Source: Leptolyngbyaceae cyanobacterium (GTDB lineage Bacteria > Cyanobacteriota > Cyanobacteriia > Cyanobacteriales > Coleofasciculaceae). From it: a stretch of DNA of 32,000 nucleotides. Within the stretch, counting starts at the first letter, position 1, and every line of letters begins with the position of its first letter. Below the pieces are notes generated by a model. The model saw nothing but the letters and a program-made list of their open reading frames with translations. It ran no database searches and was not told the DNA's origin. Shown here piece after piece: positions 2,636 through 32,000 of the stretch. The position numbers were made by a program, and so were the translations under genes. The stretch is from positions 2,247 through 34,246 of the forward strand of contig DATNQP010000442.1 of assembly GCA_036703965.1 (NCBI GenBank), in the 5' to 3' direction.

Positions 2636-2707
2636 GGGCGATTAGCTCAACGGTAGAGCGCCTGCCTTACAAGCAGGATGTTACTGGTTCGAATCCAGTA
2701 TTGCCCA
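2636..2707 (+). tRNA. tRNA-Val: tRNA-Val, anticodon UAC
   Basis: 72-nt cloverleaf. Acceptor stem GGGCGAT/ATTGCCC, anticodon arm CCTGC-CTTACAA-GCAGG with TAC at 2668-2670, T-arm CTGGTTCGAATCCAG, discriminator A. No encoded CCA. Confidence 0.93.
2652..2672 (+). other. CAST homing target: GGTA PAM (2652-2655) plus 17-nt protospacer (2656-2672) inside tRNA-Val
   Basis: GAGCGCCTGCCTTACAA at 2656-2672 is identical to the reverse complement of 2945-2961, the guide of the short crRNA. It is preceded by GTA, which fits the GTN PAM known for Cas12k. Confidence 0.85.
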
Positions 2708-2714
2708 TTGTGCC

Positions 2715-2838
2715 TGTCGAATAACACTTTATTTGTCGTCGTTAACAGATTCGTGTCGCTGTTAACACTTTAGTGTCGTCATTAACAAATTATTGTCATC
2801 TAATTCGTTCCAATGGCTGATAACAAATTATTGTCGTC
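2715..2838. repeat. CAST transposon end with five 20-bp TnsB-binding-type repeats
   Basis: Terminus TGTCGA at 2715. Units: ATAACACTTTATTTGTCGTC (2721-2740), GTTAACAGATTCGTGTCGCT (2741-2760), GTTAACACTTTAGTGTCGTC (2761-2780), ATTAACAAATTATTGTCATC (2781-2800) and, after an 18-bp gap, GATAACAAATTATTGTCGTC (2819-2838). From memory, the layout and consensus closely resemble the ShCAST end used as LE (GTGACAAATTATCTGTCGTC units). Confidence 0.85.
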
Positions 2839-2944: not shown

Positions 2945-2975
2945 TTGTAAGGCAGGCGCTCCTTTCAACCCTTCC
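2945..2975 (-). ncRNA. Delocalized short crRNA (truncated repeat plus 17-nt tRNA-Val homing guide)
   Basis: The minus strand reads GGAAGGGTTGAAAG then GAGCGCCTGCCTTACAA. The 10 nt GGGTTGAAAG equal the 3' end of the array repeat. The guide matches tRNA-Val 2656-2672 and diverges at the next base. This matches the published behaviour of V-K CAST homing crRNAs. Confidence 0.8.
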
Positions 2976-3072
2976 TAAAAATATTGTCAATTCTCAAATT
3001 TTTAAATCGTTTGCTTACATTAAGCAGCGTTAACATACCTTGCATGGCAAGCAGGCACAAGTCTTTTCTGGG

Positions 3073-3327
3073 CTTTCAACCCACCCTACTGCGGGAGGGT
3101 TGATGAAACTTTTGCAAATTCCGGTTCGACCGGAATCTGCAAATCTTTCAACCCACCCTACTGCAGTAGGGTGGGTTGATGAAACCCCTTTGTGCCTCGT
3201 TAATCAACCTCTGTGTCGTCTTTCAACCCACCCTACTGCGGGAGGGTTGATGAAACGTTCTCTAACTGACTTATAACGTTATCAGTCAGTCTTTCAACCC
3301 ACCCTACTGCGGGAGGGTTGATGAAAC
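3073..3327 (-). CRISPR. Type V-K CRISPR array, 4 repeats and 3 spacers, transcribed on the minus strand
   Basis: 37-nt repeats at 3073-3109, 3220-3256 and 3291-3327 (minus strand GTTTCATCAACCCTCCCGCAGTAGGGTGGGTTGAAAG), plus a 41-nt variant at 3145-3185. Spacers at 3110-3144 (35 nt), 3186-3219 (34 nt) and 3257-3290 (34 nt). The GGTTGAAAG 3' end of the repeat is as in ShCAST. Confidence 0.95.
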
Positions 3328-3429: not shown

Positions 3430-3526
3430 ATGTGAATCTCTAAAATCAAGAGTGGACAAGAGTTTTGAACTACTGACGGCAACTCAGGGATTTTGCCCCC
3501 GCTTTGAGCCGTCAGAAAAATATTTA

Positions 3527-3836
3527 GGGAGGGTTCCCCCGAAGGGGATGAGTTCGGAACTATGCGGATTACCGCACCCTTGTAAACAAGGGCTAAGCTT
3601 TGGGAAAAATTACCTTCTCCCTCAGCCGTACCACATTTTGCTGGGAGCGCACCTATCCCGTACTATATACTTCAGTATTCAGACACGGAAATTTTCCCAT
3701 CGATGAAGAAGGTGTCATCGAGGCAGCATCCTGGGCGAGGTTCCAGGGTTCAGAAAGTAGGACTGCCTTCCGAGCAGTCAAACAGACCCTAAATTATCGC
3801 AGTACAGAGGCAATAAGCATGTACTAGTGGCGCTGT
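3527..3836 (-). ncRNA. Cas12k tracrRNA (ends approximate)
   Basis: The minus strand carries, in order, the blocks I recall from the ShCAST tracrRNA: AGCGCC, GCCTCTG, AGGGTCTGTTTGACTG, CTTTCTGAACCCTGG, GATGCTGC, GGATAGGTGCGCTCCCAGCAA and CCCCTTCGGGGGAACCCTCCC. The last block is complementary to the repeat segment GGGTGGGTT. It lies between cas12k and the array, as expected. Confidence 0.85.
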
Positions 3837-3840
3837 TAAT

Positions 3841-3869
3841 TGAATAACATTGTTTATTTATATTGTCAA
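3841..3869 (-). promoter_or_regulatory. Probable tracrRNA promoter
   Basis: On the minus strand: TTGACA (3869-3864), 17-nt spacer, TATTCA (3846-3841). This predicts a start near 3834, just before the conserved AGCGCC block. Confidence 0.45.
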
Positions 3870-3887: not shown

Positions 3888-5816
3888 CTAGCTAGCTGAT
3901 ACTTTACGGTTTTCATAGGCAGCTAGCACTAAATTCCTTGCTTTCTCTTGAGGGGTGTCTCCATGCGGTTGGTGTACTTTTTCTGTGGCAATCCCGGCTC
4001 TTTGGGCTTTAAGCTGAATAGACTCCGCTAACCTGTTGTAACTCCAACGGTGAATGCTGGCACGATAATCCTTGGCGTAGGAATCTTGAAGCTCTTTATA
4101 GCCCGGAAATTTTTGTTCGGCTCTGGCTCGCACTTCACTCTCAACCGCTTCCTCTATATTTCTCAAGTCAGGTAGGACAATACTGCTAGCTCGATACTGT
4201 GAAGCCACTTCCACAATCGCTTTTGCCAGCAGTCTATCCACATACTCCCCTTGTTTTGATTCTCCAAAGTTACAACGAGCACCTTTTTTTTGAGCGTTGT
4301 GGCGTTTGTGGCTATTGAGACATTCTTGCTCTCGCCAATGCTTGAGTTGCTCATACTGAGTCTTTTTCTTCTTAGTTTTCCCCTCTTTAATTGGCTTGCT
4401 CAGTAATTGCTTAACATCACGGTATGCCAAAACTGCGCCAGTTTCGATGTTGACCACCGCAACCGTTGCTGGTTTAGCTCGACCGAAGCTTACCCCAATG
4501 ACAATTGAGGGATTGCCCTTGTAGCCTGCTCGACTGGGACGAGAGAACCCCCGAAACGTTTGAAGTCGCTCTAGAGAAGATTCGTAATCTTTCAGCTTAG
4601 GACTCCGGCTACCTTTTGCTTTCATGCTGTCGATAATCTTTTGCGTTTTCGCAATTTTCTCTGCACGTACTTCCTCTGTTCCCTCAGCCGTCCACAAACG
4701 AGTTTCAACAGAGCAGTGAAGCAACAGCCGATGCACTTGCCAGGGTTCGCCTTCGCCTTCACTTTCTTGCCAAACTAGTCGAGCAGAACGTAAGCTTAAC
4801 AATCCAGCAGGAGCCTGCACCTTGTTGTGCGTAAAAATTTTGTAGTCTTCATCAAAGCGTTCAAACCAGTGTAGTTGGCGCTGGTCGCAAAAGACCTCAA
4901 AGGTATGCTGGCTAATGCCTTTGCCATTGAAGCTAACACAGATGCGCCCCTGTTCATTTCTCGACCATCGCAAGTCAGCGTTGGTTCCGTAAGATATCGA
5001 GAAGGGAACAGGGCTTTGTTTTCTAGTCAGACTGGCTTGCACTTGTCTCGATTTTTCTTCCTCAATGATTCGACCTTGCTCTTGTTCCACGGCTTCCACG
5101 CACTGTTGCTTAGATAAGTTTCTTCCTTTGGGAAGACGGCTTTTGAGTTGTTTTTTTAGGCGTTCGATTTGAATTTCCTTCTTGCGCCGCCGCTGTTTAT
5201 AGGCTTTGGGGTCTTCTTCTACTTCGCTAACCTGGCAGCGATTTTTCAATAAATAAGCAATAGCGCAGCGTTGCTGGGGAGCTTTAGCTTTATCGTAGGC
5301 TTGGAAGAGGCTGTTGAATAAGGCTTTTGAATTATCCTTGGGAGCTGGGTCTGGTTTTTCTTCTTGGTTGTGCTCTAACTCAGCCTTTTTCTTGGTGAGG
5401 ATTTTCGTAGCTTGAACACGTAGCGTTTCTAAACTACAACCGCTTTCTAGTTCTAGTTCCAAATCGCTTTTAAGCATATCGAGCCAGTGTTGTTTTCTCT
5501 GGAGACGAAACCTCCGTTTTTCTTGTAGAGCAAACCAGGACTTGTAAATGTCTTTGACTAAGTTCTCAGCAGCGTTCGCGAAACGTCCTGGCATATCCTG
5601 GAAGCGAAACTCACCTCTGAGGTTTTTGCAGAGTCCTTCGATGACTTGGGCTGTAATGTTTCCTTCTTCCAACCACTTATCAAAATCCGGGTGAGTATTA
5701 ATCTGGTTTAGCAGTTCATTGACCAAAAGTGTATGTTTCTCCACCATTAGGCTCCAGAGATGACGCAGCGAGTCTAATGGTGCTTTGAGTTGGCATTGAA
5801 CTGTAATGACGCTCAT
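3888..5816 (-). CDS. cas12k: Cas12k (type V-K effector)
   Basis: The 642-aa product is collinear with ShCas12k as I recall it. Examples: MSVITVQCQL.., HPDFDKWLEEG, LHWFERF, GEGEPWQVHRLLLHC, KPATVAVVNIETGAVLAYRDVKQLL, EQKFPGYKE, IHRWSYNRLAESIQLKAQRAGI. It is followed by the tracrRNA and array. Confidence 0.95.
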   Translation of the reverse strand: MSVITVQCQLKAPLDSLRHLWSLMVEKHTLLVNELLNQINTHPDFDKWLEEGNITAQVIEGLCKNLRGEFRFQDMPGRFANAAENLVKDIYKSWFALQEKRRFRLQRKQHWLDMLKSDLELELESGCSLETLRVQATKILTKKKAELEHNQEEKPDPAPKDNSKALFNSLFQAYDKAKAPQQRCAIAYLLKNRCQVSEVEEDPKAYKQRRRKKEIQIERLKKQLKSRLPKGRNLSKQQCVEAVEQEQGRIIEEEKSRQVQASLTRKQSPVPFSISYGTNADLRWSRNEQGRICVSFNGKGISQHTFEVFCDQRQLHWFERFDEDYKIFTHNKVQAPAGLLSLRSARLVWQESEGEGEPWQVHRLLLHCSVETRLWTAEGTEEVRAEKIAKTQKIIDSMKAKGSRSPKLKDYESSLERLQTFRGFSRPSRAGYKGNPSIVIGVSFGRAKPATVAVVNIETGAVLAYRDVKQLLSKPIKEGKTKKKKTQYEQLKHWREQECLNSHKRHNAQKKGARCNFGESKQGEYVDRLLAKAIVEVASQYRASSIVLPDLRNIEEAVESEVRARAEQKFPGYKELQDSYAKDYRASIHRWSYNRLAESIQLKAQRAGIATEKVHQPHGDTPQEKARNLVLAAYENRKVSAS

Positions 5817-5955: not shown

Positions 5956-7797
5956 TTACTTGGGAGCGTGATAATCGATAAACCTCTTTGGATGGAACCT
6001 TTTACCATTGCCATTTTCCGGCAACGACTCTCCAGCCAAATCCTTACCCATCGCCCTATTAATTCTTGCTACCAGCGCCTGCGTTCTCGCTTCAAAAAAT
6101 GCGTCAAAATCATCGTTGTGCAAAGTTGTCGGCTCAATTAGGTGCGATCGCAAAATCTCATCAATCCTCTGCCTTGACATCCCTTGTTCTTCTAACTTTG
6201 CCAGATACTCTGATGGTGCTTTCCCCCCTAAAAACTTATTTGTCTTCGCCGTTAGGGGTGTCTTGTTAATAATGCTGTTGTAGCGTGAGCGGGGAATTCC
6301 CTGTCGCTTGCACCACTCTTGAGGGAAGATGTGGTGGTTCTCAATCTTCTCGTCGAAGTAACGAGCTGCCGTAATCGGTTCGCCACTGACAAAATCTAAT
6401 GCCCCATCACGTCTAAGTAAAGCAGCGATCGCTCTATAAGTCGCCCCACCAGAATTAACTAAACTCTGCAACCGTTCTGCCGACAGATGCGCTTCTTTTA
6501 CGGTTGATGGCACTTCGCCACCATTAAGCCATTGAGAAACTTCGATCAAATCCTTGGCGGCAGTCCCTTCCCGTGATCGCGAATAAATCCCCGATGCTGC
6601 CCCACAGTAAAACCACTGTTGTAAGAATTGCCGCACCCAGTCCAGCTTCGTTCCCTCTTGTAAAATCGCAAACAAAGGAGCCATGACCACAAGCTGCATC
6701 GCATAAGGAAGATCATTAGCATCGAAGATGGCTTGAGTATGGAGAAAACGAGCCACTTCCTCAAAGGCGGCACCGATCGGTTCCATCCAGTGCTGATATT
6801 GCGCCAACTCTAAACCCAGCACATCCTGACGATTACATGCTACTCCCGGTAGCCGTTCGGGATGACAACCCTGCTGTTGAGCTTGCACTCGTCGCGCATA
6901 GTTGGCCATCAAAGCGATCGCCTGTAAGAAATCTGTTGGCTTTAACAGGCGCAAAACTTGATGAGAACTAAAGCGCTTCTCTCTGACTATCCAGTCTGAG
7001 CGCAAGTCAAAATCAGTGGCAGCGAAAGAGGACGTTAACAAGTCAAATTGTGTCAGTTCGCACTGTCGTTTGTTGTTTTCCTCGAAAATGTAACAGACAG
7101 CTTCTTTAGGCAGTTCGGCTCTCAAGACGAACAATCCCATCTGATAATGCTCGAATTTCTTGATGACGGTTGCTTCAAATTCGTCAATCAAGGCTAACTT
7201 TTGTGGGTCGTAATGCCAGTATTTGCAGTATTGAGAGCGCCACTGGGGGAAATTGAAGACTTGGGAAATGGGAAATAAATCGAGTTCAAATTCTTTTTTC
7301 GGCGTCGAACAGTCCAGTACAGGTTGTTCGTGCCGATAGAGCTTTTTATCAACCGTTAAGCCCCAGATAGCATCTCGGCGGTCGGTGTGAGGGTAGTCGA
7401 GGGCTTGGGCAATGTCGATATAGTACCAGCGTTGCTCCGCTGGGTAGCGTTTGCCTCGATCGATCCGCACGGGTTGGTCGGATAGCAGGGACATGAACAG
7501 ACTGGTGAGGCGTTGCTGTCCGTCAAGAATCAAAGCTGTCGGCACGGGAGGATTAGCGAGGCTCAAACTTTCGACAAGGCGGGGCTTGAATTTGACATCC
7601 GGGTTGCCTTGCTGAAGGAGCATTACCGCTCCCACTGGGAAACCAAGGGAGACGCTAGCAATTACCCGTTCGATGCGCTCTTCATCCCAGCACCAGGAAC
7701 GCTGAAAGTCCACAAGCTGTATTTTGCCCTGTTGGATATCCCGTAGCAGGTCGAGCAGGGGTTCTTTGGTGATATCGAAGGTGGAAATGGAAGTCAT
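5956..7797 (-). CDS. GmrSD-family DUF262/DUF1524 protein (putative modification-dependent type IV restriction enzyme)
   Basis: The N-terminal DUF262 signature includes QRSWCWDEERIERVIASVSLGFPVG and LILDGQQRLTSL. The C-terminal His-Me/HNH-like DUF1524 signature includes ENHHIFPQEW...NSIINKTPLTAKTNKFLG. The track ORF extends to 7899; the ATG at 7797 (MTSISTFDIT) is the more likely start. Confidence 0.8.
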   Translation of the reverse strand: MTSISTFDITKEPLLDLLRDIQQGKIQLVDFQRSWCWDEERIERVIASVSLGFPVGAVMLLQQGNPDVKFKPRLVESLSLANPPVPTALILDGQQRLTSLFMSLLSDQPVRIDRGKRYPAEQRWYYIDIAQALDYPHTDRRDAIWGLTVDKKLYRHEQPVLDCSTPKKEFELDLFPISQVFNFPQWRSQYCKYWHYDPQKLALIDEFEATVIKKFEHYQMGLFVLRAELPKEAVCYIFEENNKRQCELTQFDLLTSSFAATDFDLRSDWIVREKRFSSHQVLRLLKPTDFLQAIALMANYARRVQAQQQGCHPERLPGVACNRQDVLGLELAQYQHWMEPIGAAFEEVARFLHTQAIFDANDLPYAMQLVVMAPLFAILQEGTKLDWVRQFLQQWFYCGAASGIYSRSREGTAAKDLIEVSQWLNGGEVPSTVKEAHLSAERLQSLVNSGGATYRAIAALLRRDGALDFVSGEPITAARYFDEKIENHHIFPQEWCKRQGIPRSRYNSIINKTPLTAKTNKFLGGKAPSEYLAKLEEQGMSRQRIDEILRSHLIEPTTLHNDDFDAFFEARTQALVARINRAMGKDLAGESLPENGNGKRFHPKRFIDYHAPK

Positions 7798-7929
7798 GCC
7801 CTTGTTCGTGCTAAAGGTTGGCAGCAGCAACGGAGTACTTCTAACTACCCTAAAACGTTCTTGTGTGACCAAGTGAGGCATGAATCGAATTCCTCTCAAT
7901 CTGATAGGTTTTTGTTAAGTTTGTTTAAA

Positions 7930-8238
7930 TTACTCTTGACTATTGGATACAGGGCATAAACGGGTTTTCAGTCCATCGGGAATTTCTTCAAAATGCTCGA
8001 TAAACAAATCTGCGAGTGCTAGATAGCGCAAGTGGTATCTAGTCGGTGGCGAAAAGTTTGTTCCTCGCTCAAACCAGCGTTGGACTGTGGCGAGGGAGCA
8101 TTGACAGATAGCTGCCATCTGCGATCGCGTTACGCTCCATTTGGCTTCAAAGGCACGGGGAGACATCCCTAACTGGCAGTTGGCGTAGAGACGAATCAAC
8201 TCCAGTTCTTGTTGTCCAAGGGGACGAGGATAGGTCAT
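7930..8238 (-). CDS. Small helix-turn-helix protein (putative transcriptional regulator)
   Basis: 102 aa. The segment TRSQMAAICQCSLATVQRWFERG looks like a classic HTH. Its ATG overlaps the stop of the upstream gene (ATGA at 8235-8238). Confidence 0.55.
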   Translation of the reverse strand: MTYPRPLGQQELELIRLYANCQLGMSPRAFEAKWSVTRSQMAAICQCSLATVQRWFERGTNFSPPTRYHLRYLALADLFIEHFEEIPDGLKTRLCPVSNSQE

Positions 8239-8837
8239 GAGTTTGTCTCCAAGGGCAGAGGTTCAAGGTGTTCTTCCCAACAGGTATCAGCGACACAGAA
8301 CTGAGCGCTGGGAGAAGAGGGAGCGAGGAGAATCAGGTATTTCCACCCCCACTGGCAGCGATGAGGAGCAAAGGCGTAGAACCGCCCAATGGCGATGCCC
8401 CTGTCGGTTTCGTCTGTATGAGATAACGGTTTCCATCGGAGGCGATCGCCATACAAAAACTTGGGCGTTTCGGCACTATCCGGGAAATTCGCTGGCAGGC
8501 TAATACCCGGAACTGAAGGATGGAAACTCAGCGAGGGTAAGCCAGAAAGTGAACTATCTAACTGGAAAGCTTGCAGGAGATTGGAGAGCTGTTGGCGATT
8601 CAGGTTGTTAGTGACTTGGCGGATGAGTAAGGCAGTGAGCGAGTCGAGTTCTCCTTGGCTAAGTGGGTTTGTTTGGCTGTTTTCGATGGGTTGGCTGAGG
8701 GACGTTATGCGTTCTGCGCCAAGTGCAGTGCCTATGGCATCGCGCAACTCCAACACGCCAAAGTCCTGTAAGGCTTGCAGGTAGGCAGGGTCAGGTTGAG
8801 TTTGGTGGAAGCGCTGTTGCTTTTCGGTTGGCTTCAT
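8235..8837 (-). CDS. Hypothetical protein
   Basis: The ORF is translationally coupled to the HTH gene. The track start at 8891 is a TTG; the first ATG is at 8837 (MKPTEKQQRF). I recognise no family. The C-terminal segment is Trp/Gly-rich (RLRWKPL..GIAIGRFYAF..QWGWKYLILL). Confidence 0.45.
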   Translation of the reverse strand: MKPTEKQQRFHQTQPDPAYLQALQDFGVLELRDAIGTALGAERITSLSQPIENSQTNPLSQGELDSLTALLIRQVTNNLNRQQLSNLLQAFQLDSSLSGLPSLSFHPSVPGISLPANFPDSAETPKFLYGDRLRWKPLSHTDETDRGIAIGRFYAFAPHRCQWGWKYLILLAPSSPSAQFCVADTCWEEHLEPLPLETNS

Positions 8838-8869
8838 AGGGATTTTTTCTGGGAGTACCCTGATTTTAG

Positions 8870-8969
8870 GCACATAGTCACAAAAAGGCAATAAGAGGGA
8901 CTATGTGCTTATTTTGCCTAGCGCTGATACAATCCAGAGATAATTAAGCACAAGGTTATTTGTGCTTAA
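8870..8969. promoter_or_regulatory. Divergent promoter region with reiterated operator-like half-sites (TGTGCTTA / TAAGCACA)
   Basis: Inverted repeat GCACATAGTC (8870-8879) / GACTATGTGC (8899-8908). Inverted repeat TTAAGCACA (8944-8952) / TGTGCTTAA (8961-8969). The 8-mer TGTGCTTA or its complement occurs three times within 70 bp, just upstream of the RHH gene. Confidence 0.55.
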
Positions 8970-8975
8970 CGAGGA

Positions 8976-9440
8976 TTGGCTGAGGATAAATACGTTTCTG
9001 TAAGGCTCTACTTACCAGACCAAGAATTTAAGCGGCGCTTTCAGGCGGCTTGCGCGATGCATGGGCGCAAGATGAGTGATGTGGCGGTAGAGCTGATTGA
9101 TGCGTGGCTAGGTGAAAATGAATCGCTAGAGCAGTTGCGACAAACAGAGACTGCTCGCCGCACTGATGCAGTGAGTCGCGTACCAACGATCGCGTCTTTG
9201 ATTGAAGAAACGCTAAGTAACCGCGACTGGGTACTTGGGAAGCTTGCGGCGGATGCTGAAATTTCTGTGGAACGGATTAATAAGTTACTAGAAGGAGAGC
9301 GCCCCTCTGATGTAGAACTCCAAAAGCTCGCCCTACGGTTGGTTAAACCCGATGGTGAAGCGTGGGAGGAGGGGGAACTGGTGGATATTCGACTGGCTGA
9401 GGATTTGAAGCGGAGACGGCAGCAGAAGCGATCGCGTTAG
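8976..9440 (+). CDS. Ribbon-helix-helix (CopG/Arc-like) plus XRE-like HTH DNA-binding protein
   Basis: TTG start. The N-terminal VSVRLYLPDQEFKRRFQAACAMHGRKMSDVAVELIDAWL fits an RHH beta-alpha-alpha pattern. The C-terminal LAADAEISVERINKLLEGERPSDVELQKLALRL fits an XRE-type HTH. Confidence 0.6.
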   Translation: MAEDKYVSVRLYLPDQEFKRRFQAACAMHGRKMSDVAVELIDAWLGENESLEQLRQTETARRTDAVSRVPTIASLIEETLSNRDWVLGKLAADAEISVERINKLLEGERPSDVELQKLALRLVKPDGEAWEEGELVDIRLAEDLKRRRQQKRSR

Positions 9441-9486
9441 GGTTCTATACGGAAATGTAATTTATGGGAAGATGCTGAGGTAGCCG

Positions 9487-9795
9487 ATGAGCATTGATGA
9501 TGAACTTCGCAAAACTCGCACAAATACCTATGTATCTGCCCTGGATATCCATATCCTTAATGCTGGCACTGATACTGAGCGCGATCGCCAAATTGCAGCA
9601 GGCTCGCTTGCATGGAATCTCCCCAAGTTAGAGTTTGGATTGGATGCGATCGCTAAGTACGTCACGGTTGATGAAGCGGGTGCTGACTTTATGAAGGGGT
9701 TTTACGCTTGGTCAGAGCGCATCCTCAAAGAGGGATACAGTATTCTCGAAAGATTCCAAATTCCTCCTCAACCGTTTGAGCATCCTTTGGTGTAG
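9487..9795 (+). CDS. Hypothetical protein
   Basis: 102-aa ORF, 46 nt downstream of the RHH gene on the same strand. No recognisable motif. Confidence 0.4.
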   Translation: MSIDDELRKTRTNTYVSALDIHILNAGTDTERDRQIAAGSLAWNLPKLEFGLDAIAKYVTVDEAGADFMKGFYAWSERILKEGYSILERFQIPPQPFEHPLV

Positions 9796-9902
9796 CAGGA
9801 ATTCGGTTCACTAGGCTAAAAGTAGGGTCACATCAGTTGCCTGAGAATAGACGGATGTTTGAGTTCCTCGTTGTGGCAAGCTAGGGTTGTGGTAAGTGAT
9901 GG

Positions 9903-10169
9903 TTATTCAGCTTTCTTGGGAAATTCACACTTGACGGTGATTTCCATGTTGCAGCCACCTTTAGCGTTGGCAATGTAGGGCACTCCAGCTTCGCTGCTGA
10001 TGTTGACTCCAAATTTCAGGGTGACTTCACTGACTTCCGCGATCGCGACATTCTTAAAGGTATTCAGGGTATAGGTGGTATATGCCCGAATAGTTTGTTC
10101 GATCGCTCGAAATGTTTGCGGGACTTGCTTGTGTGGATCGCCGATAAATACCCCACCTCGTTTTACAAT
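9903..10169 (-). pseudogene. trypco2 / CU044_2847-like small protein remnant lacking a start codon
   Basis: An 88-codon open frame not in the track: IVKRGGVFIGDPHKQVPQTFRAIEQTIRAYTTYTLNTFKNVAIAEVSEVTLKFGVNISSEAGVPYIANAKGGCNMEITVKCEFPKKAE. The C-terminal pattern (EV.L.FGV....EAG...A......N..ITV) matches what I recall for the trypco2 family. The frame is closed upstream by TAA TGA and has no ATG/GTG/TTG until the final 14 codons (first is an ATG). Confidence 0.35.
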
Positions 10170-10510
10170 TCATTACCCTTGGGCAGATTTCAGCAGCCTC
10201 ACTCGATATCGAAGGCGCGATGCGATCGCACAAGTGATAGAACCTGCCCAAATTTGGAGTAAGTTACCAAATCGTAAATACTGGTTAGATGCCAGCCACT
10301 TAAGCGGTTCATCCGACTTGGTTGTTCAGGGGAAAGCAGTAATTAAACTCTGCCGAAAATAGAAGCCGACTGTTTTTGACCGCTAGGACAACAAGTGTAA
10401 AGTGACTGAGGCGATCGCCTGCTCACACTTCATCAACTCTTTATCAATATGGGGTCACACCCCTCACGCCAAACACCATAATAAGACTAATAGATGCACC
10501 CTGATGATCG

Positions 10511-10542
10511 AGAGAGTCGCATTCGTGACTCTCTATTTTTTT
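10511..10542 (+). terminator. Rho-independent terminator with no annotated gene upstream
   Basis: 10-bp stem AGAGAGTCGC / GTGACTCTCT (one G-T pair), 4-nt loop ATTC, followed by A and seven Ts (10536-10542). Confidence 0.6.
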
Positions 10543-10758
10543 AGGAAGCTTTCAAAATCAGTAGATATACCATGTACCCGGTAGTGCCTCTAGAGTTAGC
10601 CTCGATAAAGACCATCTGGGACGCACCCTTGTCATGCCCGTGACTGAATCGCCATTAACTGCTGTACTTGCGAAGGAAACATAGAGAAAGTTACAAGTGC
10701 GATACCCTGGCAAGGGAACAGCAAGCATGGACAGGGCTAGAGAGGAGGAAGAGGAAAA

Positions 10759-11340
10759 ATGGCTACCGATCGCGTTTCTCAGAGCGCACTCGATACTATC
10801 CTTGCGCTACAGATAACGGTAGCTTGGGCGGGTGAAGCATTGTCTGAACCTAAGCGCGTTGGCTGGTGGCGGACTGACCTTGTTGATGAGTTAGGGGGTG
10901 GGGACTTATTCAAGCGCCTCTTCCCTCATACGCATCGGTGGGCATCCCTTGAAGCAGTGCGTCAGGTGGCGATTCAGGTGGACAAGCAGGCAAGACTAGG
11001 AATGGCAAAGCCTGACGAGGTTCGCACGCTGTTCTTCTGGGGTTTTGCAGTGGATGAAAAGCTAGCAGAACGGTTCAACTTTCACAAACGCAGTGGTAAG
11101 GAACCAGTTGAAGTTCTCGACTTTCCTTTAGAACTCGACGAAGACTTTGTTAAGGTTGACTTTGAGGATGCACTCCGGATTCCCAACCACAACGTCAGTC
11201 ATAAGGTCGTTCCTGGGGGTCGCGAAATTGCGGAGGCGATGCCTGAAGCTTTAGAGTTAAGGGCTAAGAAGCTGGCGGCTGGACTTCTTCCTCTTGCAGA
11301 TGACTACCCGATGCCATTTTACCGCGTAGAGGGTAGATAA
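10759..11340 (+). CDS. brxE: BREX type 6 protein BrxE
   Basis: 193-aa first gene of the operon, preceded by a purine-rich GAGGAGGAAGAGGA. Called from its position directly upstream of brxA in a locus that also has brxD and brxHI, which is the type 6 layout of Goldfarb et al. 2015. I do not hold an independent sequence signature for BrxE. Confidence 0.6.
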   Translation: MATDRVSQSALDTILALQITVAWAGEALSEPKRVGWWRTDLVDELGGGDLFKRLFPHTHRWASLEAVRQVAIQVDKQARLGMAKPDEVRTLFFWGFAVDEKLAERFNFHKRSGKEPVEVLDFPLELDEDFVKVDFEDALRIPNHNVSHKVVPGGREIAEAMPEALELRAKKLAAGLLPLADDYPMPFYRVEGR

Positions 11341-11345
11341 CCTGG

Positions 11346-12176
11346 ATGACAATTGAATGTATCCAAAACCAGTTCCCGGAGCAAGATGCACGCTTAGCAC
11401 CGTCATACGGTGTAGAGGTCAATCAATTTCATACCCGACTGCTTCGTATGTCTCTGGCTACGGAGGAAAGCCGTGCTTATTGGGAAAACCTCCAGGTGGA
11501 GATTCCTAAAGATAAGCGGGTGGTTGTGGCTTTTGAGGAGCGCTGGTTTGGTAACAAAAGCATGGCTCGCGTTGAGACTATTCTTAAGAACTTTGCCTAC
11601 AGATTTGATGCGTACCCAGTAGCATTAGAGGTTTTGCAACGTTGGTGTCCGAGCAACCCAACGACCCGCCAAAATATTTGTCACTGGCATCTACAATTAT
11701 CCGATCCTATTTACCGCAGCTTTTCAGGTATCTTTTTGGAGCAAAGACGGCTGCACCCCGAACCCACGCTCGATCGGGATGTAGTCGTTCGCTGGGTATC
11801 TGGACAACTTAATAACCAATGGTCATCAGCTACAACAATTCGCATGGCTACCGCTTTGATGACCTGTGCTACTACGGCTGGACTTTGTTCTGATAACCCT
11901 GGCACGCGCCGTCTGGCGTATCCCAAAGTTACGGATGAGGCACTGGCTTACTGGCTCTATTTTCTCCGCTATTTATCGTTTGAAGGGTCGTTATTAAACA
12001 ATCCTTATTTGGCTTCTGTGGGCTTAAGTGAGAGTTTCCTCGAACAGCGCCTGCTTCGTTTACCCGGACTGTCTTTTAAACGCATGGGCGACTTGCAAGA
12101 TATGGGGTGGCAATACCCCGATTTGAAGTCTTGGGCAATTCACTGTCTTGGACTCAATTGGGAGGATGGGAAATGA
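11346..12176 (+). CDS. brxA: BREX protein BrxA (DUF1819 family)
   Basis: 276 aa, in the conserved position before brxB and brxC. Its stop overlaps the brxB start. Confidence 0.65.
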   Translation: MTIECIQNQFPEQDARLAPSYGVEVNQFHTRLLRMSLATEESRAYWENLQVEIPKDKRVVVAFEERWFGNKSMARVETILKNFAYRFDAYPVALEVLQRWCPSNPTTRQNICHWHLQLSDPIYRSFSGIFLEQRRLHPEPTLDRDVVVRWVSGQLNNQWSSATTIRMATALMTCATTAGLCSDNPGTRRLAYPKVTDEALAYWLYFLRYLSFEGSLLNNPYLASVGLSESFLEQRLLRLPGLSFKRMGDLQDMGWQYPDLKSWAIHCLGLNWEDGK

Positions 12177-12814
12177 CCACTTCTCTGGGACCGTTGTTTG
12201 ACAAAACCTTTCCGGTAGTGCAGGCACTCCGCAATGACCTGTTAGCTGAGGGGGGTCCCCAGATCAGTACCATGCGAAACTATCGTTTTGCCATCTTACT
12301 CTACGATCCGGGGGCTGAGTTTAAACTGCGATCGCAGATTCGCCGTCTGAGTGATGAACTCAAAGGACTAGGATGGAACATTTTATCCATTTCACTCCAA
12401 TCCCTGTTGCTGGAGCGACTCAAGAAGGAAGATCGGCGCGTCATTGATAGCATTATCCGTACTGAACGCCGTTTCTATGACCGAAATCCAGACCGTGCCT
12501 TAAACCATTTAAAAGACAAAATTGCACCCCACATTGAAGGCGCTGGCGGCATTGCTAAGGACGTTATTGCTCTGATTGATGAGTTTGCCGACAAACATCC
12601 TGCTGATATCAATCGAACTGTAATTTTTGTGGGGCGGACAGGTGCTTTATATCCATTCTTTCACTCGTCATCGCTGCTGAAGCATATTGACGGGAAAACC
12701 CGCAATCTGCCTGTTGTTTTGCTCTATCCAGGCAAGCGACATGATGGCAATGCGCTTTCGTTTATGGGAGAAATTCCCCCAGACCGAGACTACCGACCGA
12801 GGATTTATTCGTGA
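12173..12814 (+). CDS. brxB: BREX protein BrxB (DUF1788 family)
   Basis: The ATG at 12173 overlaps the brxA stop (ATGA). The track ORF starting at 12107 is an upstream extension inside brxA. Called from size and position before brxC. Confidence 0.65.
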   Translation: MTTSLGPLFDKTFPVVQALRNDLLAEGGPQISTMRNYRFAILLYDPGAEFKLRSQIRRLSDELKGLGWNILSISLQSLLLERLKKEDRRVIDSIIRTERRFYDRNPDRALNHLKDKIAPHIEGAGGIAKDVIALIDEFADKHPADINRTVIFVGRTGALYPFFHSSSLLKHIDGKTRNLPVVLLYPGKRHDGNALSFMGEIPPDRDYRPRIYS

Positions 12815-12851
12815 ACCACTATTCTATTGATTTCGTAAGGAAGCTGAGGAA

Positions 12852-15800
12852 ATGCTAGTCAAAGAGGTCTTTGCTGCGGATGTCACCCGCGACATTGCTC
12901 CTGTAATTTACTTCCACGAGCAGGAGCCTGCCAAGGTTCTAGCAGAGGTCTCTGAGTATATCATCACAGGGGGATATCCAGAAACAGACCCGCGCCATCG
13001 TCGTATTCAATCGGGAATCCACGAGCAGTTTGTGAGATTGCTTTTGTCGTTGGCAGCAGAATTGCGAAAACCACAAGGGACTGAGCTTCCGGCTGTGTGG
13101 ATTTCTGGCTTTTATGGATCGGGGAAGTCTAGTTTCGCCAAGCTGTTAGGTTTGGCACTCGATGGCGTAACTTTACCCGATCGCCGCACGGTTGCCGAAG
13201 CTCTTCTCGCTAGAGATGACTCGCCAAAGGCAAAGGAATTCAGAGAAGCGTGGGAGGAAGTCCGCCGTCAAATCGATCCGATCGCAGTCGTTTTCGATAT
13301 TGGCGCAGTCGCTAGGGATGACGAACATATTCACTCCGCCGTGAAGCGGCAAGTGCAAGCGCGTCTGGGGTACTGTCCCAACAGCTATGTGGCTAACTTC
13401 GAGTTGAAGTTGGAACTTGACGGTAAGTGGGATGAATTTTTGGCTCAGGCTCAAAAAACGCTCTCGCAACCTTGGTTAGAACTCAAAGACAGCCAACTGG
13501 CGGACGAAGATTTTTCTCTAGTCATGCACGAAATGTACCCAGATCGGTACACCGATCCGATGACTTGGTATGACAGCCATATTGCTTCCCAAGACCAAAG
13601 TGGTTCCTCGGTGGCAGAAACAACCAAAGCGATCGCGGCAATGCTGCGACATCGCGCTGCTGGCAAAACCTTATTTTTGGTGGTCGATGAGGTGAGCCAG
13701 TATATCTATCAAAATGACAACCGAATGCTCAAGTTACAGTCCTTTGTAGCTGACCTCGGTCAAAAGCTCAAGAGTACAGTTTGGCTGTTTGCTACCGGAC
13801 AACAAAAGCTTGAAGACAGCGACGATGAGAGCAATATTGGCAAACTGAAAGACCGCTTTCCTCCCAAACTTCGCGTTCACCTCGACCCTGCCAATATCCG
13901 AGATGTCGTTCACAAACGGCTGTTGAAAAAGTCAGCGACTAAAGAACCCCAACTGCGATCGCTTTTTGGTCAGCACCGCAGCGACCTCAAACTCTACGGC
14001 TATTCCTGCGATTCCATCACGGAAGAAGACTTCCTTGAAGTTTACCCGATGCTGCCAGGGTATGTTGATCTGCTGATGCAAATTACGTCTAATTTGCGAG
14101 TCCGTTCGACGCGCACTAAGGGTGATGATTATGCGATTCGAGGATTGTTACAACTGTTGGGGGAACTGTTCAGAACCCAGAATTTGGGAGAGCAGGAACT
14201 GGGAGCATTAGTGACTTTAGATAGCATCTTTGAGGTGCAACAATCGGCATTAGATGCCGATATGCAAAATACCCTCTCTCGTGTCTTTTCTCATCCAGAG
14301 GTTGCCAGTGACGACATGGCAATCAAGGTAACTAAGGTTGTATCGCTGTTGGAATTAATTCAAGAACAGCAACCCACTACAACTAAGTTCATCAGTCAGT
14401 GCCTCTACGAGCAGTTAGGGAGGGGGAATAATGAAGCCATTGTTCAGCAGGCATTAGATAAACTGCGCGATTTAGGATTTATTTCTTATTCAGACAAGCT
14501 CGGCTATAAAATTCAAAGTTCCGCAGGGCAAGAATGGCAACGCGAACGAGAAGAGCATAGTGTACCCGATGATGACATTAGTCTAATTGTTAGCGAAAAA
14601 GTTAAGGACTTATTGGGAACTGTAGAGAACCCCTCTTATAAAGGCAAAAAGTTTAGGTGGACTGCTTTTTACACTGACAACCGTCAGCGCAAGGATGAAC
14701 GGTTACAGAAAGTCACCGATCTAGATGTGATTGCAGTTGATTTCCGTTATTTAACCAAAACTGAAGATCGCGATACAACAACCTGGGTGCAAACCAGCGA
14801 CAGCCCACTGCTGCGAAATCGCCTACTTTGGGTTGTAGGGACGCCTGCTGAAGTGAAATCCCTTGTTAGAGAATTGGCGCGTTCCCGGCACATTCTTAAT
14901 CGCTATGGCTCGCGCTTACAGTCCATTTCTAAAGATAAACAACGCCTGTATTTCGAGGAACAAAGTCGCTGTGAGGAGCTAGAAAAACAAGCCAAAGATG
15001 CGATTACTAAAGCATTTATGGATGGGGAACTTTACTTCCGAGGTAGGCAAATTGACAAGCGAGAACACGGGACATCCTTTGCTACTGTGCTGCATCGCGT
15101 TGGTGAGAGTATTCTTCCCGACCTTTACAACCAATATGTCGATATTGCGATTACACCTACTGAATTGGCGCAATTGCTCGAACCCACGTTATCGGGACCC
15201 TCTTCTAAGTTCATGCAGCAAGGATTGGGGATTCTTGAACTCGATGCAGGTAAGTACGTCCCCACTTGCAACGGTCAAGTTCCCAGCCGGATTTTGCAAT
15301 ACATTACGGATTACAATGGAGCATCGACGGTCAGTATAGTAAACGATTTCGGTGGTCCCCCTTATGGCTATTCCGCAGACGCAATTAAGGCGTGTTTAGT
15401 GGGACTACTTCGGGCTAGTAAAATTCGCATTCGACCGGAGTCTGGAGCAGAAATTACCTCGATCCGCGATCCGGGGACTAAAGATATTTTCCAGAAAGAC
15501 CGCGATTTCAAGCGTTCTGATATTCTCCCAGAAAGCGGTCAAGGAATTAGTGCGCGAGACCGAAATAAAATCTGTAAGTTCTTCAAAGACTATTTACAGG
15601 TTGACCTCGATCGCGAGAACGATGCGATCGCAGATGAGGTGTTCAACTGGTTCCCAGGTCGGGCTAAAGTGCTGCAAGAATTGGAGAAGCAGTATAGTCG
15701 GCTGCCCAATCGTCCCGAACTGCCCGATTCGCTCCTTAAGCTGCGAACTGCCTTAGAAGACTGTATGCGATCGCGCCAAGTCGAGGCTACAGTGCTAGCG

Positions 15801-16481: not shown

Positions 16482-16506
16482 CCCGATCGCCATTACTTTT
16501 GATTTG

Positions 16507-20523: not shown

Positions 20524-20525
20524 AT

Positions 20526-21656: not shown

Positions 21657-21717
21657 CTCTTCAACTTAAACTCAAATACTATTCTTCAACATTTAACTAG
21701 CCTTTCCAAGTCAAGCC

Positions 21718-24615: not shown

Positions 24616-24646
24616 AGAAGGCAGAGCGGCAAAACAACTAGAAATT

Positions 24647-25966: not shown

Positions 25967-25968
25967 CC

Positions 25969-28077: not shown

Positions 28078-28164
28078 ATAGTCCTGAAGTTTAATAGTGC
28101 AGCCTTATTAGACACTCTCGCCTGATAGTATGACTAACATTCCATCCAAAACTCCTCTGCTAAC

Positions 28165-28593
28165 ATGGCATACTGGCTGTTTCAAGGCAATCCCAAATAC
28201 TACCGCGTCCTTGATGGCATCCGAGACTTTGAACAGATGCCTTGGTTGGTGACTCGCTACGGAAAAGACATTGCTCCTGGTGATGGTGTTCTGGTGTGGG
28301 TTTCTGGGAAAGAAGCAGGGATTTATGCGATCGCAAAAGTCACAGAACCCGCTCAGGTTATCACCAAGCTACCAGACGGCAAATACTGGGCAGACCCCAA
28401 CCGCACTACAGGGAAACAGCAAGCCATCATTGAATTTACCAGCAAACTTCTAGACAAGCCCCTGCTGAAAACAGATTTAGTCAAAGACCCTATTCTCAAC
28501 AACTTGCTAGTCATTCGCGCTCCCAATAGCACCAACTTCAAAATCACAGCAGAACAGTGGAAACGGGTACAGGAGTTATTAGATGTTGAATAG
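28165..28593 (+). CDS. Stand-alone EVE (PUA-like) domain protein
   Basis: 142 aa. The N-terminal segment reads YWLFQGNPKYY...W...GDGVLVWVSGKEAGIYAIAKVTEPA, which is the typical EVE signature. It is on the same strand, 87 nt after brxHI. Confidence 0.75.
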   Translation: MAYWLFQGNPKYYRVLDGIRDFEQMPWLVTRYGKDIAPGDGVLVWVSGKEAGIYAIAKVTEPAQVITKLPDGKYWADPNRTTGKQQAIIEFTSKLLDKPLLKTDLVKDPILNNLLVIRAPNSTNFKITAEQWKRVQELLDVE

Positions 28594-31951: not shown

Positions 31952-32000
31952 TTCTTCTAAGAACTGGCGCTGCTGTTCTGCAAGATTGGCTGAAGAATTC

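What the first reader, a model, noticed from the sequence alone, without database searches (positions are those of the whole stretch)
2652..2838. A CAST caught at its homing site: PAM, guide match and 60-bp spacing are all readable in cis
tRNA-Val carries GGTA followed by GAGCGCCTGCCTTACAA (2656-2672). The transposon terminus TGT starts at 2715, exactly 60 nt after the last PAM base. That falls in the 60-66 bp window reported for Cas12k-directed insertion. The end facing the target is the one with four contiguous TnsB-type sites plus one separated site. The tRNA itself stays intact, since the insertion is 8 bp past its 3' end. GTGCC (2710-2714) would be the 5-bp target-site duplication. The locus therefore documents its own insertion event and gives a PAM, guide length and spacing for an uncharacterised Cas12k orthologue.
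Basis: partly seen in the sequence, partly recalled or inferred. Interest (0 to 1): 0.7.

Follow-up and report, generated by a model that had tools for sequence, protein, structure and literature searches.

The report
Cas12k transposon at its tRNA-Val site
This is the tRNA-proximal end of a CRISPR-guided (Cas12k, type V-K) transposon in a cyanobacterium, sitting where its own short 17-nt guide RNA directs it; the reading is correct, but this homing arrangement is already well documented.

Summary
Every coordinate in the finding checks out. tRNA-Val(TAC) lies at 2636-2707. GGTA is at 2652-2655 and GAGCGCCTGCCTTACAA at 2656-2672. The transposon terminus TGT is at 2715, 60 nt after the PAM. Inside the element, the exact reverse complement of that 17-mer (2945-2961) follows a truncated CRISPR repeat (2962-2977). 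A 4-repeat array, a conserved structured tracrRNA and an intact cas12k (3888-5816) come next. Elements with the same terminus show the same pattern at tRNA-Ala, tRNA-Pro and a second host's tRNA-Val: GGTA, a 16/17- or 17/17-nt match, and 57-62 nt spacing. This is the canonical type V-K CAST homing layout, already catalogued in 118-219 elements, so it is a new member of a known kind.

Caveats:
- No tnsB, tnsC, tniQ or right end lies in the window, and the twin JGI contig ends about 1 kb past the window end.
- The same MAG has a TnsB N-terminal fragment on another contig that I could not retrieve.
- The GTGCC duplication is therefore untested here.
- An intact relative (Microcoleus FACHB-SPT15) has a perfect 5-bp duplication, whereas a tniQ-less sister element has none.

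The sister sits at tRNA-Ala, and its guide differs at only 2 of 17 positions.

The parts
2636..2707 (+). tRNA-Val(TAC), the attachment (homing) site. It is intact.
   Evidence: ARAGORN; Rfam RF00005 at 75.6 bits; identical sequence in L002, L003, L032 and L033.
2652..2655 (+). PAM GGTA (GTA fits the Cas12k GTN PAM).
   Evidence: Read directly. The same GGTA precedes the protospacer in L004-6, L014/L018, L015/L031, L023, L027, L029 and L034. The GTN PAM is stated in PMC9938897.
2656..2672 (+). 17-nt protospacer GAGCGCCTGCCTTACAA, running from the tRNA D-arm/anticodon arm through the anticodon.
   Evidence: 100% complementary to 2945-2961 (I5).
2710..2714 (+). GTGCC, the 5 bp abutting the terminus and the candidate target-site duplication. 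This is inferred, not verified.
   Evidence: Position read directly. The right end was not recovered. A 5-bp duplication is present in the intact relative and absent in the sister.
2715..2838 (+). Transposon left end (LE). It has a terminal TGT and five TnsB-type sites: 2722-2740, 2743-2760, 2763-2780, 2783-2800 and 2821-2838.
   Evidence: (D3). The same sequence occurs in four different flanks.
2945..2961 (-). 17-nt att-targeting ('anchor' or 'delocalized') spacer, GAGCGCCTGCCTTACAA in crRNA sense.
   Evidence: It is unchanged in L015, where the nearest difference is at 2944, guide position 18.
2962..2977 (-). Truncated solo repeat R* (TAGGAAGGGTTGAAAG in crRNA sense).
   Evidence: D2 (88% identical to the 3' end of the array repeats).
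3038..3327 (-). CRISPR array. Four repeats (three of 37 nt at 3073-3109, 3220-3256 and 3291-3327; one 40-nt variant at 3145-3184), each followed by a 34-35-nt spacer.
   Evidence: (D1). The repeats end in GGGTTGAAAG.
3517..3845 (-). tracrRNA (boundaries approximate).
   Evidence: Conserved in close and distant relatives. The consensus fold has an invariant long-range helix and 10 compensatory pairs. It pairs with the repeat at -27.2 kcal/mol. The 3' hairpin GGGGGAACCCTCCC is followed by a T-run. No Rfam family matches.
3888..5816 (-). cas12k (642 aa, full length).
   Evidence: NCBIfam NF038191 at 813 bits, E 1e-244. ShCas12k structures such as 7n3o match at E 3e-157 over residues 1-637.
5956..7899 (-). 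GmrSD-family (DUF262) gene directly upstream of cas12k and co-oriented with it. This linkage is conserved in the clade.
   Evidence: Pfam PF03235, E 2e-22. The same position is occupied in L004/L007, L005 and L034. In L015 a collinear 647-aa ORF lies within the 88%-identity block.
7930..32000 (.). Cargo. It comprises a small HTH ORF (7930-8238), a 218-aa ORF (8235-8891), an RHH/ParG-like ORF (8976-9440), a BREX type 6 system (10759-28077), an EVE protein (28165-28593) and a NACHT-HEAT protein (28754 to beyond 32000). No tnsB, tnsC or tniQ is present.

Best explanation
The window holds the left (tRNA-proximal) half of a type V-K CRISPR-associated transposon (CAST) inserted at its chromosomal homing site.

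The proposed mechanism runs as follows. A solo transcription unit just inside the left end encodes a truncated repeat plus a 17-nt spacer. Paired with the tracrRNA and loaded into the nuclease-dead Cas12k, this guide recognises GTA plus GAGCGCCTGCCTTACAA in the anticodon arm of tRNA-Val(TAC). Cas12k-TniQ then nucleates a TnsC filament, and TnsB joins the element's left end about 60 nt downstream of the PAM, just past the tRNA 3' end. The tRNA stays intact and the element lands in a safe site.

Shown here: the tRNA, PAM, protospacer, exact guide match, spacing, left-end architecture, array, tracrRNA and intact cas12k; the exact mobile-unit boundary at 2715; and reproducibility of the geometry in relatives.

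Inferred from established V-K biology: the order of protein recruitment, expression of the solo crRNA, and the 5-bp duplication GTGCC.

Not shown: that this copy still has a functional tnsB-tnsC-tniQ module and a right end.
For: Components:
- Cas12k: NF038191 at 813 bits; ShCas12k structures at E 3e-157, full length.
- Guide: 17/17 inverted match next to a truncated repeat.
- tracrRNA: conserved, with a consensus fold carrying compensatory pairs.
- Left end: TnsB-site motif 4 times versus 0.1 expected, found only here.

Replication in elements sharing the same 24-nt terminus:
- tRNA-Ala(TGC): GGTA, 17 nt, 61 nt (L004-6).
- tRNA-Val(TAC) in an Aphanothece MAG: GGTA, 17 nt, 62 nt (L015/L031).
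- tRNA-Pro(CGG): 57, 60, 61 and 62 nt (L027, L029, L023, L014/L018).
- A non-tRNA site: GGTT, 13 nt, 61 nt (L020).
- A closely related end at tRNA-Pro(TGG) in Microcoleus FACHB-SPT15: GGTA, 16/17, 60 nt.

Guide length: versus L015 the 17-mer is invariant and the nearest substitution is at guide position 18. Versus the tRNA-Ala sister, 5 of 8 substitutions in 358 nt fall in the guide block (binomial about 6e-5, my calculation).

Family gene order: the intact relative has RE-tnsB-tnsC-tniQ-cargo-GmrSD-cas12k-tracr-array-solo guide-LE-tRNA with a perfect 5-bp duplication, ATTTA.

Transposase in the same MAG: a TnsB N-terminal fragment (HEY9794539.1) is 355/358 identical to the sister's TnsB.

Literature: the same architecture is reported in 118 systems with PAM-to-LE distances of 46-82 nt (PMC9938897). 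219 elements carry a truncated repeat plus 17-bp att spacer. ShCAST inserts 60-66 bp from the PAM (PMC9798831).
Against: - No tnsB, tnsC, tniQ or right end lies in the 29 kb following the left end. The twin JGI contig stops about 1.07 kb beyond the window without them.
- The GTGCC duplication is unverified.
- The 96%-identical sister element has lost tniQ and shows no matching 5-bp duplication.
- Literature reports only 152 of 282 cas12k genes with a proximal tnsBCQ operon, so this copy could be immobile.
- Assigning the TnsB fragment to this element rests on MAG binning.
- No virgin empty site was found to confirm the pre-insertion sequence.
- There are no expression data for the solo crRNA.
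Confidence: 0.92

Rival explanations
1. This is a decayed, immobile remnant. Only the cas12k-side half of a former CAST remains at the att site. The transposase module and right end are lost or relocated, so the locus is a fossil of a past homing event rather than a functional element.
For: - No tns genes or right end lie within 29 kb, and the contig ends in cargo.
- The sister element lost tniQ and has no duplication.
- Other strains carry only a fragment of the RHH cargo gene next to the same tRNA-Val.
- 130 of 282 cas12k genes lack a proximal tnsBCQ operon and were interpreted as degraded.
Against: - cas12k is full length.
- The guide is 17/17, and the left end differs by at most 1 nt from copies in other contexts.
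- The same MAG has a TnsB N-terminus 99% identical to the sister's.
- A copy of this left end interrupts a kinase gene elsewhere, which indicates recent mobility of the family.
- Large cargo between cas12k and tniQ is normal for these elements.
Confidence: 0.3
2. The 17-nt identity between the tRNA and 2945-2961 is a by-product of a tRNA-targeting integrase island (att duplication) or of chance, not a guide RNA.
For: tRNA genes are common integration sites for integrase-type islands, and short tRNA-derived repeats flank such islands (general knowledge).
Against: - The copy is inverted, comes from the anticodon arm rather than the tRNA 3' end, and directly abuts a CRISPR repeat 3' end.
- No integrase is present.
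- The chance expectation is about 1e-5.
- In the sister element the copy changes in step with the neighbouring tRNA, from Val to Ala.
Confidence: 0.01
3. The element arrived here by a route other than simple RNA-guided insertion, for example intramolecular replicative transposition or recombination between CAST copies. In that case the two ends would not share a GTGCC duplication even if the element is intact.
For: - V-K elements lack TnsA and transpose replicatively through cointegrates.
- The sister has both ends on one contig with non-matching flanks, GTTTG versus TCATC.
- Several tandem or nested ends were seen in metagenomes (L012, L013, L026).
- The att site shows three different downstream configurations in near-identical hosts.
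Against: - The PAM, guide and 60-nt geometry at the left end is exactly as expected for a guided event.
- The intact relative shows a clean 5-bp duplication.
Confidence: 0.2

Closest known systems
ShCAST (Scytonema hofmanni UTEX B 2349, Tn7747), the experimentally characterised type V-K CAST
   Same: - Cas12k effector: full-length match at E 3e-157 to the solved structures.
- The tracrRNA sits between cas12k and the array, and the repeats end in GGGTTGAAAG.
- GTN PAM.
- Insertion about 60 nt from the PAM, against 60-66 bp for ShCAST.
- The left end is made of roughly 20-bp TGTCG...AACA units.
   Different: - The Cas12k is only distantly related. The window's clade is at most 51% identical to all Nostocales Cas12k listed, and 47% identical to S. 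hofmannii PCC 7110.
- The host is Leptolyngbyaceae-like.
- The tracrRNA carries an extra variable insert.
- No member of this clade has been tested experimentally, as far as the literature I searched shows.
General cyanobacterial V-K CAST architecture with 'anchor spacer' (Ziemann et al. 2023, PMC9938897; AnCAST of Anabaena 7120)
   Same: The order is tRNA, LE, 17-nt spacer plus roughly 12-16-nt truncated repeat, array, tracrRNA, cas12k, cargo, then tniQ-tnsC-tnsB at the RE. The PAM is GTN and the PAM-to-LE distance falls within 46-82 nt.
   Different: - No CvkR/MerR or small Arc repressor gene lies divergently next to the cas12k start.
- A GmrSD gene sits directly upstream instead, co-oriented with cas12k.
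- A larger RHH/ParG-like ORF (154 aa) lies about 3.2 kb away in the opposite orientation.
- It is not the V-K_V2 subgroup.
Truncated repeat-spacer att-guides of Tn7-CRISPR-Cas12K elements (Hsieh & Peters 2021 preprint; Saito et al. 2021 'delocalized crRNA')
   Same: A partial repeat and 17-bp spacer sit outside the array, the spacer matches a tRNA perfectly, and att sites differ between close relatives.
   Different: Nothing in kind. This locus adds a sister pair (about 96% nucleotide identity) whose guides differ at 2 of 17 positions and sit at tRNA-Val(TAC) and tRNA-Ala(TGC) respectively.
Tn7 homing to attTn7 (TnsD/glmS) and type I-F3 CAST atypical-repeat homing guides
   Same: The logic is the same: a dedicated selector directs insertion at a fixed distance downstream of a conserved gene without disrupting it.
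   Different: - Here the selector is an RNA guide in Cas12k, not TnsD or Cascade.
- The att site adjoins the end distal to the transposase genes.
- There is no TnsA, so transposition is replicative.

Membership tests
Type V-K CAST (Tn7-CRISPR-Cas12k element) | Cas12k effector gene | tested here: met
   NF038191 at 813 bits against a cutoff of 150; ShCas12k PDB chains at E 3e-157, full length.
Type V-K CAST (Tn7-CRISPR-Cas12k element) | tracrRNA downstream of cas12k, on the same strand, upstream of the array | tested here: met
   Conserved block; consensus structure with 10 compensatory pairs; repeat pairing at -27.2 kcal/mol. No Rfam model exists to score it.
Type V-K CAST (Tn7-CRISPR-Cas12k element) | CRISPR array of about 37-nt repeats with a conserved 3' GTTGAAAG and about 35-nt spacers, reading toward the left end | tested here: met
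   Four repeats and 34-35-nt spacers.
Type V-K CAST (Tn7-CRISPR-Cas12k element) | Solo truncated repeat plus 17-nt spacer matching a protospacer with GTN PAM just outside the left end, usually in a tRNA | tested here: met
   2945-2977 versus 2652-2672, a 17/17 match with GGTA.
Type V-K CAST (Tn7-CRISPR-Cas12k element) | Left end beginning with TGT and carrying multiple TnsB-binding repeats, 46-82 nt from the PAM | tested here: met
   TGT at 2715, five sites, 60 nt from the PAM. The boundary is confirmed by four independent flanks.
Type V-K CAST (Tn7-CRISPR-Cas12k element) | tnsB-tnsC-tniQ operon next to the right end | tested here: inconclusive
   Absent from the window and from the twin JGI contig. 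A TnsB N-terminal fragment, 355/358 identical to the sister's, exists in the same MAG on a 4,336-bp contig, but its DNA could not be retrieved. The operon is present in relatives L016 and L036.
Type V-K CAST (Tn7-CRISPR-Cas12k element) | Right end in inverted orientation and a 5-bp target-site duplication | not testable with these tools
   The right end of this copy was not recovered. In relatives, the Microcoleus FACHB-SPT15 element has a perfect ATTTA duplication, while the sister has none (GTTTG versus TCATC).
Type V-K CAST (Tn7-CRISPR-Cas12k element) | Cyanobacterial host | tested here: met
   The window's proteins are deposited as a Leptolyngbyaceae cyanobacterium MAG. All relatives found are in cyanobacteria.
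V-K CAST with an adjacent divergent regulator (CvkR/Arc_1/Arc_2; 86 of 118 systems) | [quoted passage not shown] | tested here: not met
   The gene directly upstream is a co-oriented GmrSD gene. The only reverse-oriented RHH ORF (8976-9440, 154 aa, ParG hit at E 8e-7) lies about 3.2 kb away.
V-K_V2 subgroup | Alternative tracrRNA, Arc_2 regulator, Nostocales host | tested here: not met
   The tracrRNA shares conserved blocks and a common fold with the other V-K loci aligned here and resembles the ShCAST tracrRNA as I recall it (from memory). The host is not Nostocales. Definition taken.

The most novel reading that the evidence does not exclude
The window element and its roughly 96%-identical sister capture an att-site switch in progress. 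Their solo guides differ at only 2 of the 17 matching positions (11 C/T and 14 A/G), and each matches its own neighbouring tRNA perfectly: Val-TAC here and Ala-TGC in the sister. Substitutions between the two elements are strongly concentrated in the 24-nt guide block.

This would mean V-K CASTs can hop between tRNA att sites by point mutation of a short, mismatch-tolerant guide rather than by acquiring a new spacer. That would give a concrete explanation for the unexplained 'dynamic' att-site usage of V-K elements. The pair would also be a natural test set for the mismatch tolerance of 17-nt Cas12k guides.
Probability: 0.3. Interest if true: 0.45.

Novelty: new member of a known kind. Interest (0 to 1): 0.25.

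Why it matters
As a phenomenon it adds nothing new. RNA-guided homing of V-K CASTs to tRNA genes by a truncated 17-nt guide has been catalogued in hundreds of elements.

Its modest value lies in three points:
- It documents PAM (GTA), homing-guide length (17 nt) and spacing (60 nt) for a non-Nostocales Cas12k clade that is at most 51% identical to any Nostocales Cas12k found, including that of Scytonema hofmannii PCC 7110. This could interest people mining CAST orthologues.
- With its relatives, it gives a natural series of the same transposon end at five different tRNA genes, with 57-62 nt spacing.
- It includes a Val/Ala sister pair whose guides differ by two bases.

It also shows a large defence cargo (BREX type 6, GmrSD, NACHT) riding on the element.

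Tried and rejected
- **Source contig beyond 32000.** Exact look-ups of Cas12k and the NACHT ORF failed. The EVE protein gave the twin JGI contig, which ends about 1.07 kb past the window with no tns genes or end.
- **Empty site.** Four closely related contigs carry the same MazG-DUF2227-tRNA-Val flank but no cas12k (L002, L003, L032, L033). None is a virgin site. They diverge from the window 1 nt after the tRNA, and three carry a fragment of the RHH cargo gene.
- **Scar as decayed left end.** I suspected the 80-bp stretch after the tRNA in L002 and L003 was a decayed CAST left end. BLAST against all held ends found nothing, so I dropped that claim.
- **Scans for the right end.** Metagenome and genome scans with the 24-nt terminus, looking for GGCAC|TGTCG, recovered no such end. 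The window's own sample is not in those collections.
- **The MAG's TnsB contig.** The contig carrying the TnsB fragment HEY9794539.1 could not be retrieved.
- **Host flanks.** Flanks outside the relatives' right ends were compared with sequence beyond the tRNA-Val. No informative homology was found.
- **Array spacers.** Searched against everything held; no protospacer was found.
- **Rfam.** There is no tracrRNA family, and only the tRNA matched.
- **Rejected readings.** Membership of V-K_V2, an integrase-type tRNA island (no integrase; the copy is inverted and comes from the anticodon arm), and a right end hidden inside the window.
- **Papers not held.** Saito 2021 and Strecker 2019 could not be read. 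Their content is cited only through papers that quote them.

Full report
**1. Observation**

- tRNA-Val(TAC) lies at 2636-2707. It is called by ARAGORN and by Rfam at 75.6 bits.
- GGTA is at 2652-2655 and GAGCGCCTGCCTTACAA at 2656-2672.
- GTGCC is at 2710-2714, and a TGT terminus starts at 2715, exactly 60 nt after the last PAM base.
- Seven base pairs (2708-2714) separate the tRNA from the TGT.

The terminal region carries five TnsB-type sites of the form TAACA-N6/7-TGTCNNC. Four are contiguous at roughly 20-bp spacing (2722-2800) and one is separate (2821-2838). The motif is found nowhere else in the 32 kb, with 0.1 matches expected by chance.

**2. What sits inside the end**

At 2945-2961 the minus strand reads GAGCGCCTGCCTTACAA, a 17/17 match to the tRNA segment. 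It is immediately preceded by a truncated CRISPR repeat, TAGGAAGGGTTGAAAG, at 2977-2962 (I5 and D2).

Further in on the minus strand lie:
- a four-repeat array at 3073-3327 with 34-35-nt spacers;
- a roughly 330-nt conserved non-coding region, about 3845-3517;
- a 642-aa ORF at 3888-5816.

The non-coding region pairs with the repeat. It is conserved in close and distant relatives in two blocks. It folds into a consensus structure with an invariant long-range helix and 10 compensatory pairs. It ends in a GGGGGAACCCTCCC hairpin followed by a T-run. I assign it as the tracrRNA.

The ORF is Cas12k. NCBIfam NF038191 scores 813 bits, and it aligns end to end with the solved ShCas12k structures at E 3e-157.

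**3. What is not in the window**

There is no tnsB, tnsC or tniQ, and no second end. Beyond cas12k lies defence cargo:
- a GmrSD gene and small HTH and RHH ORFs;
- a BREX type 6 system (BrxE, BrxB, BrxC, PglX, PglZ, BrxD, helicase);
- an EVE protein and a NACHT-HEAT protein.

The window's proteins are deposited as a Leptolyngbyaceae cyanobacterium MAG. A twin JGI contig ends about 1.07 kb beyond the window, still in cargo.

The same MAG encodes the N-terminal 358 aa of a TnsB, cut at a contig edge (HEY9794539.1). It is 355/358 identical to the TnsB of the sister element described below. The transposase module and right end therefore probably exist on that 4.3-kb contig. I could not retrieve its DNA.

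**4. Related loci**

*The sister element.* A 45-kb JGI contig (L004/L007) holds an element about 96% identical in DNA. Its left end differs by 1 nt. It sits next to tRNA-Ala(TGC), and its solo guide reads GAGCGCCTGCTTTGCAA. That matches the tRNA-Ala perfectly, with PAM GGTA and 61-nt spacing.

The two guides differ at only 2 of 17 positions. Of the 8 substitutions between the two elements across 2715-3072, 5 lie in the 24-nt guide block (binomial about 6e-5, my calculation).

*Other elements with the same terminus.* Scans of metagenome and genome collections with the 24-nt terminus found the following.

| Locus | Att site | PAM | Guide match | PAM-to-TGT spacing |
|---|---|---|---|---|
| window | tRNA-Val(TAC) | GGTA | 17 nt | 60 |
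| L004-6 (sister) | tRNA-Ala(TGC) | GGTA | 17 nt | 61 |
| L015/L031 (Aphanothece MAG) | tRNA-Val(TAC) | GGTA | 17 nt | 62 |
| L014/L018 | tRNA-Pro(CGG) | GGTA | 17 nt | 62 |
| L023 | tRNA-Pro(CGG) | GGTA | 17 nt | 61 |
| L029 | tRNA-Pro(CGG) | GGTA | 17 nt | 60 |
| L027 | tRNA-Pro(CGG) | GGTA | 17 nt | 57 |
| L020 | non-tRNA site | GGTT | 13 nt | 61 |

In the Aphanothece copy the 17-mer is unchanged, and the nearest substitution is at guide position 18. That is a neat natural indication of the functional guide length.

One further copy of the left end truncates a Ser/Thr kinase ORF (L011), which is a non-homing insertion.

Four unrelated flanks (GTGCC, GTTTG, AAAAA, GACGG) all break at the same TGT. 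This fixes the mobile-unit boundary at 2715.

**5. The duplication claim**

The claim cannot be tested on this copy. Evidence from the family is mixed in an informative way.
- The sister has both ends on one contig. Its flanks do not match (GTTTG at the LE, TCATC at the RE on the same strand), and it has lost tniQ. Its homology to the canonical RE-tnsB-tnsC-tniQ module of L016 stops at the end of tnsC.
- An intact relative from an isolate genome, Microcoleus sp. FACHB-SPT15, is about 19 kb long. Its order is RE-tnsB-tnsC-tniQ-cargo-GmrSD-cas12k-…-LE-tRNA-Pro(TGG). It has a perfect 5-bp duplication (ATTTA), GGTA, a 16/17 guide match and 60-nt spacing.

GTGCC is therefore a reasonable prediction for a simple insertion, but it stays unverified.

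**6. The empty site**

Four contigs from near-identical hosts (flanks 96-98% identical) lack cas12k at this tRNA-Val. None is a clean empty site. They diverge from the window one base after the tRNA. Three of them carry, about 80 bp on, an 87-89%-identical fragment of the RHH cargo gene found at window 8976-9440. The fourth has yet another sequence.

This att site evidently turns over repeatedly. The 80-bp stretch has no detectable similarity to CAST ends, so I do not call it a decayed end.

**7. Comparison with what is known**

The layout is exactly the general V-K CAST architecture described for 118 systems. That is tRNA, LE, 17-nt 'anchor' spacer plus truncated repeat, array, tracrRNA, cas12k, cargo, then tniQ-tnsC-tnsB at the RE, with a GTN PAM and a PAM-to-LE distance of 46-82 nt (PMC9938897).

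It also matches the truncated repeat-spacer att-guides found in 219 elements (bioRxiv 10.1101/2021.02.06.429022; review PMC11406308). The 60-nt spacing agrees with the 60-66 bp reported for ShCAST (PMC9798831).

The differences are minor.
- No CvkR or Arc regulator lies next to cas12k. A GmrSD gene is there instead, and this is conserved across the clade.
- The Cas12k belongs to a non-Nostocales clade. Members are 73-93% identical to each other and at most 51% identical to all other Cas12k proteins listed, including 47% to that of Scytonema hofmannii PCC 7110.
- It is not the V-K_V2 subgroup.

**8. Verdict**

The system is a new member of a well-known kind, so interest is low to moderate.

The most novel reading left open is that the Val/Ala sister pair records att-site switching by two point mutations in a 17-nt guide.

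Noticed in passing
L004 12660-12995 and L007 (JGI contig Ga0456421_06681); compare window 2938-2961: A sister CAST, about 96% identical, sits at tRNA-Ala(TGC). Its solo guide differs from the window's at only 2 of 17 positions (11 C/T, 14 A/G). Substitutions between the two elements cluster in the guide block (5 of 8 in 358 nt).
   Followed up: yes
L007 5414 (RE), 7700-8560 (tnsC), 8482-9957 (HsdM); L004 12913 (LE): The sister element has no tniQ, because type I R-M cargo starts right after tnsC. Its two ends, on one contig, have non-matching 5-bp flanks (GTTTG versus TCATC). It is probably a rearranged, immobilised copy.
   Followed up: partly
L002 5480-5673, L003 5589-5796, L033, L032 (tRNA-Val flanks); window 9304-9431: Near-identical hosts without cas12k show three different sequences starting 1-2 nt after the same tRNA-Val. 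Three contigs carry an 87-89%-identical fragment of the RHH/ParG-like cargo gene about 80 bp from the tRNA. One (L032) has a different TGTCGG... start 6 nt after the tRNA. No virgin att site was found.
   Followed up: partly
L011 102-911, LE at 853: The same left end truncates a Ser/Thr protein kinase ORF, with GGTG lying 61 nt upstream of the TGT. This is a non-homing insertion, either array-guided or untargeted. None of the window's spacers matches the flank.
   Followed up: partly
L013 ~250-345; L012 1-40; L026 (outside flank of the end at 4875): There are tandem or nested elements. In L013 a right-end-type terminus abuts CRISPR repeats of another V-K array. In L012 and L026 an end is preceded by another Tn7-like end.
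   Followed up: no
window 3110-3144, 3257-3290 and 3145-3184: Two of the array spacers are near-perfect palindromes (ATTTGCAGATTCCGGTCGAACCGGAATTTGCAAAA and ACTGACTGATAACGTTATAAGTCAGT...). One repeat is a 40-nt variant containing a perfect 32-nt palindrome (3148-3179). This is unusual for spacers, and the origin is unknown.
   Followed up: no
window 3038-3072: The 35 nt after the last repeat (CCCAGAAAAGACTTGTGCCTGCTTGCCATGCAAGG) are identical in the window, L004-6 and L015/L031, although the rest of the arrays differ. It is either an ancient fixed spacer or not a spacer at all.
   Followed up: no
window 5956-7899 and 8976-9440; L034 2078-3919; L015 8569-10512; L004 7936-9861: A GmrSD (DUF262) gene lies immediately upstream of cas12k and is co-oriented with it, in the window, the sister and Microcoleus FACHB-SPT15. 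In L015 a collinear 647-aa ORF occupies the same position. It takes the place where other V-K CASTs carry a divergent CvkR/Arc repressor. A 154-aa RHH ORF is divergent from this GmrSD-cas12k block and could be the regulator.
   Followed up: partly
window 10759-28077, 28165-28593, 28754-32000: The cargo is a complete-looking BREX type 6 system (BrxE, BrxB, BrxC, PglX, DUF4365 protein, PglZ, BrxD, Lhr-like helicase), plus an EVE-domain protein and a NACHT-HEAT STAND protein. Relatives carry different cargo: type I R-M in L004 and L036, and BREX genes (BrxA, BrxC) in L016.
   Followed up: partly
window 7959-8337: The 102-aa HTH gene is an indel relative to the sister element. Its protein cluster has 75 members across Coleofasciculus, Trichocoleus and related MAGs.
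   Followed up: no
window 28915-30000: The NACHT-HEAT gene contains a long run of 93-nt (31-aa) tandem HEAT/PBS-lyase-type repeats, seen as a ladder of self-matches. The true ORF is 1113 aa and runs past the window end to about 32095.
   Followed up: no
window 2715-3072 versus L015 5413-5770: The left end plus solo-guide region is about 98.5% identical between the window and the Aphanothece element. The rest of the element is about 88% identical and the host flank about 78%. The end and guide module is therefore under much stronger constraint, or was exchanged more recently, than the rest.
   Followed up: partly
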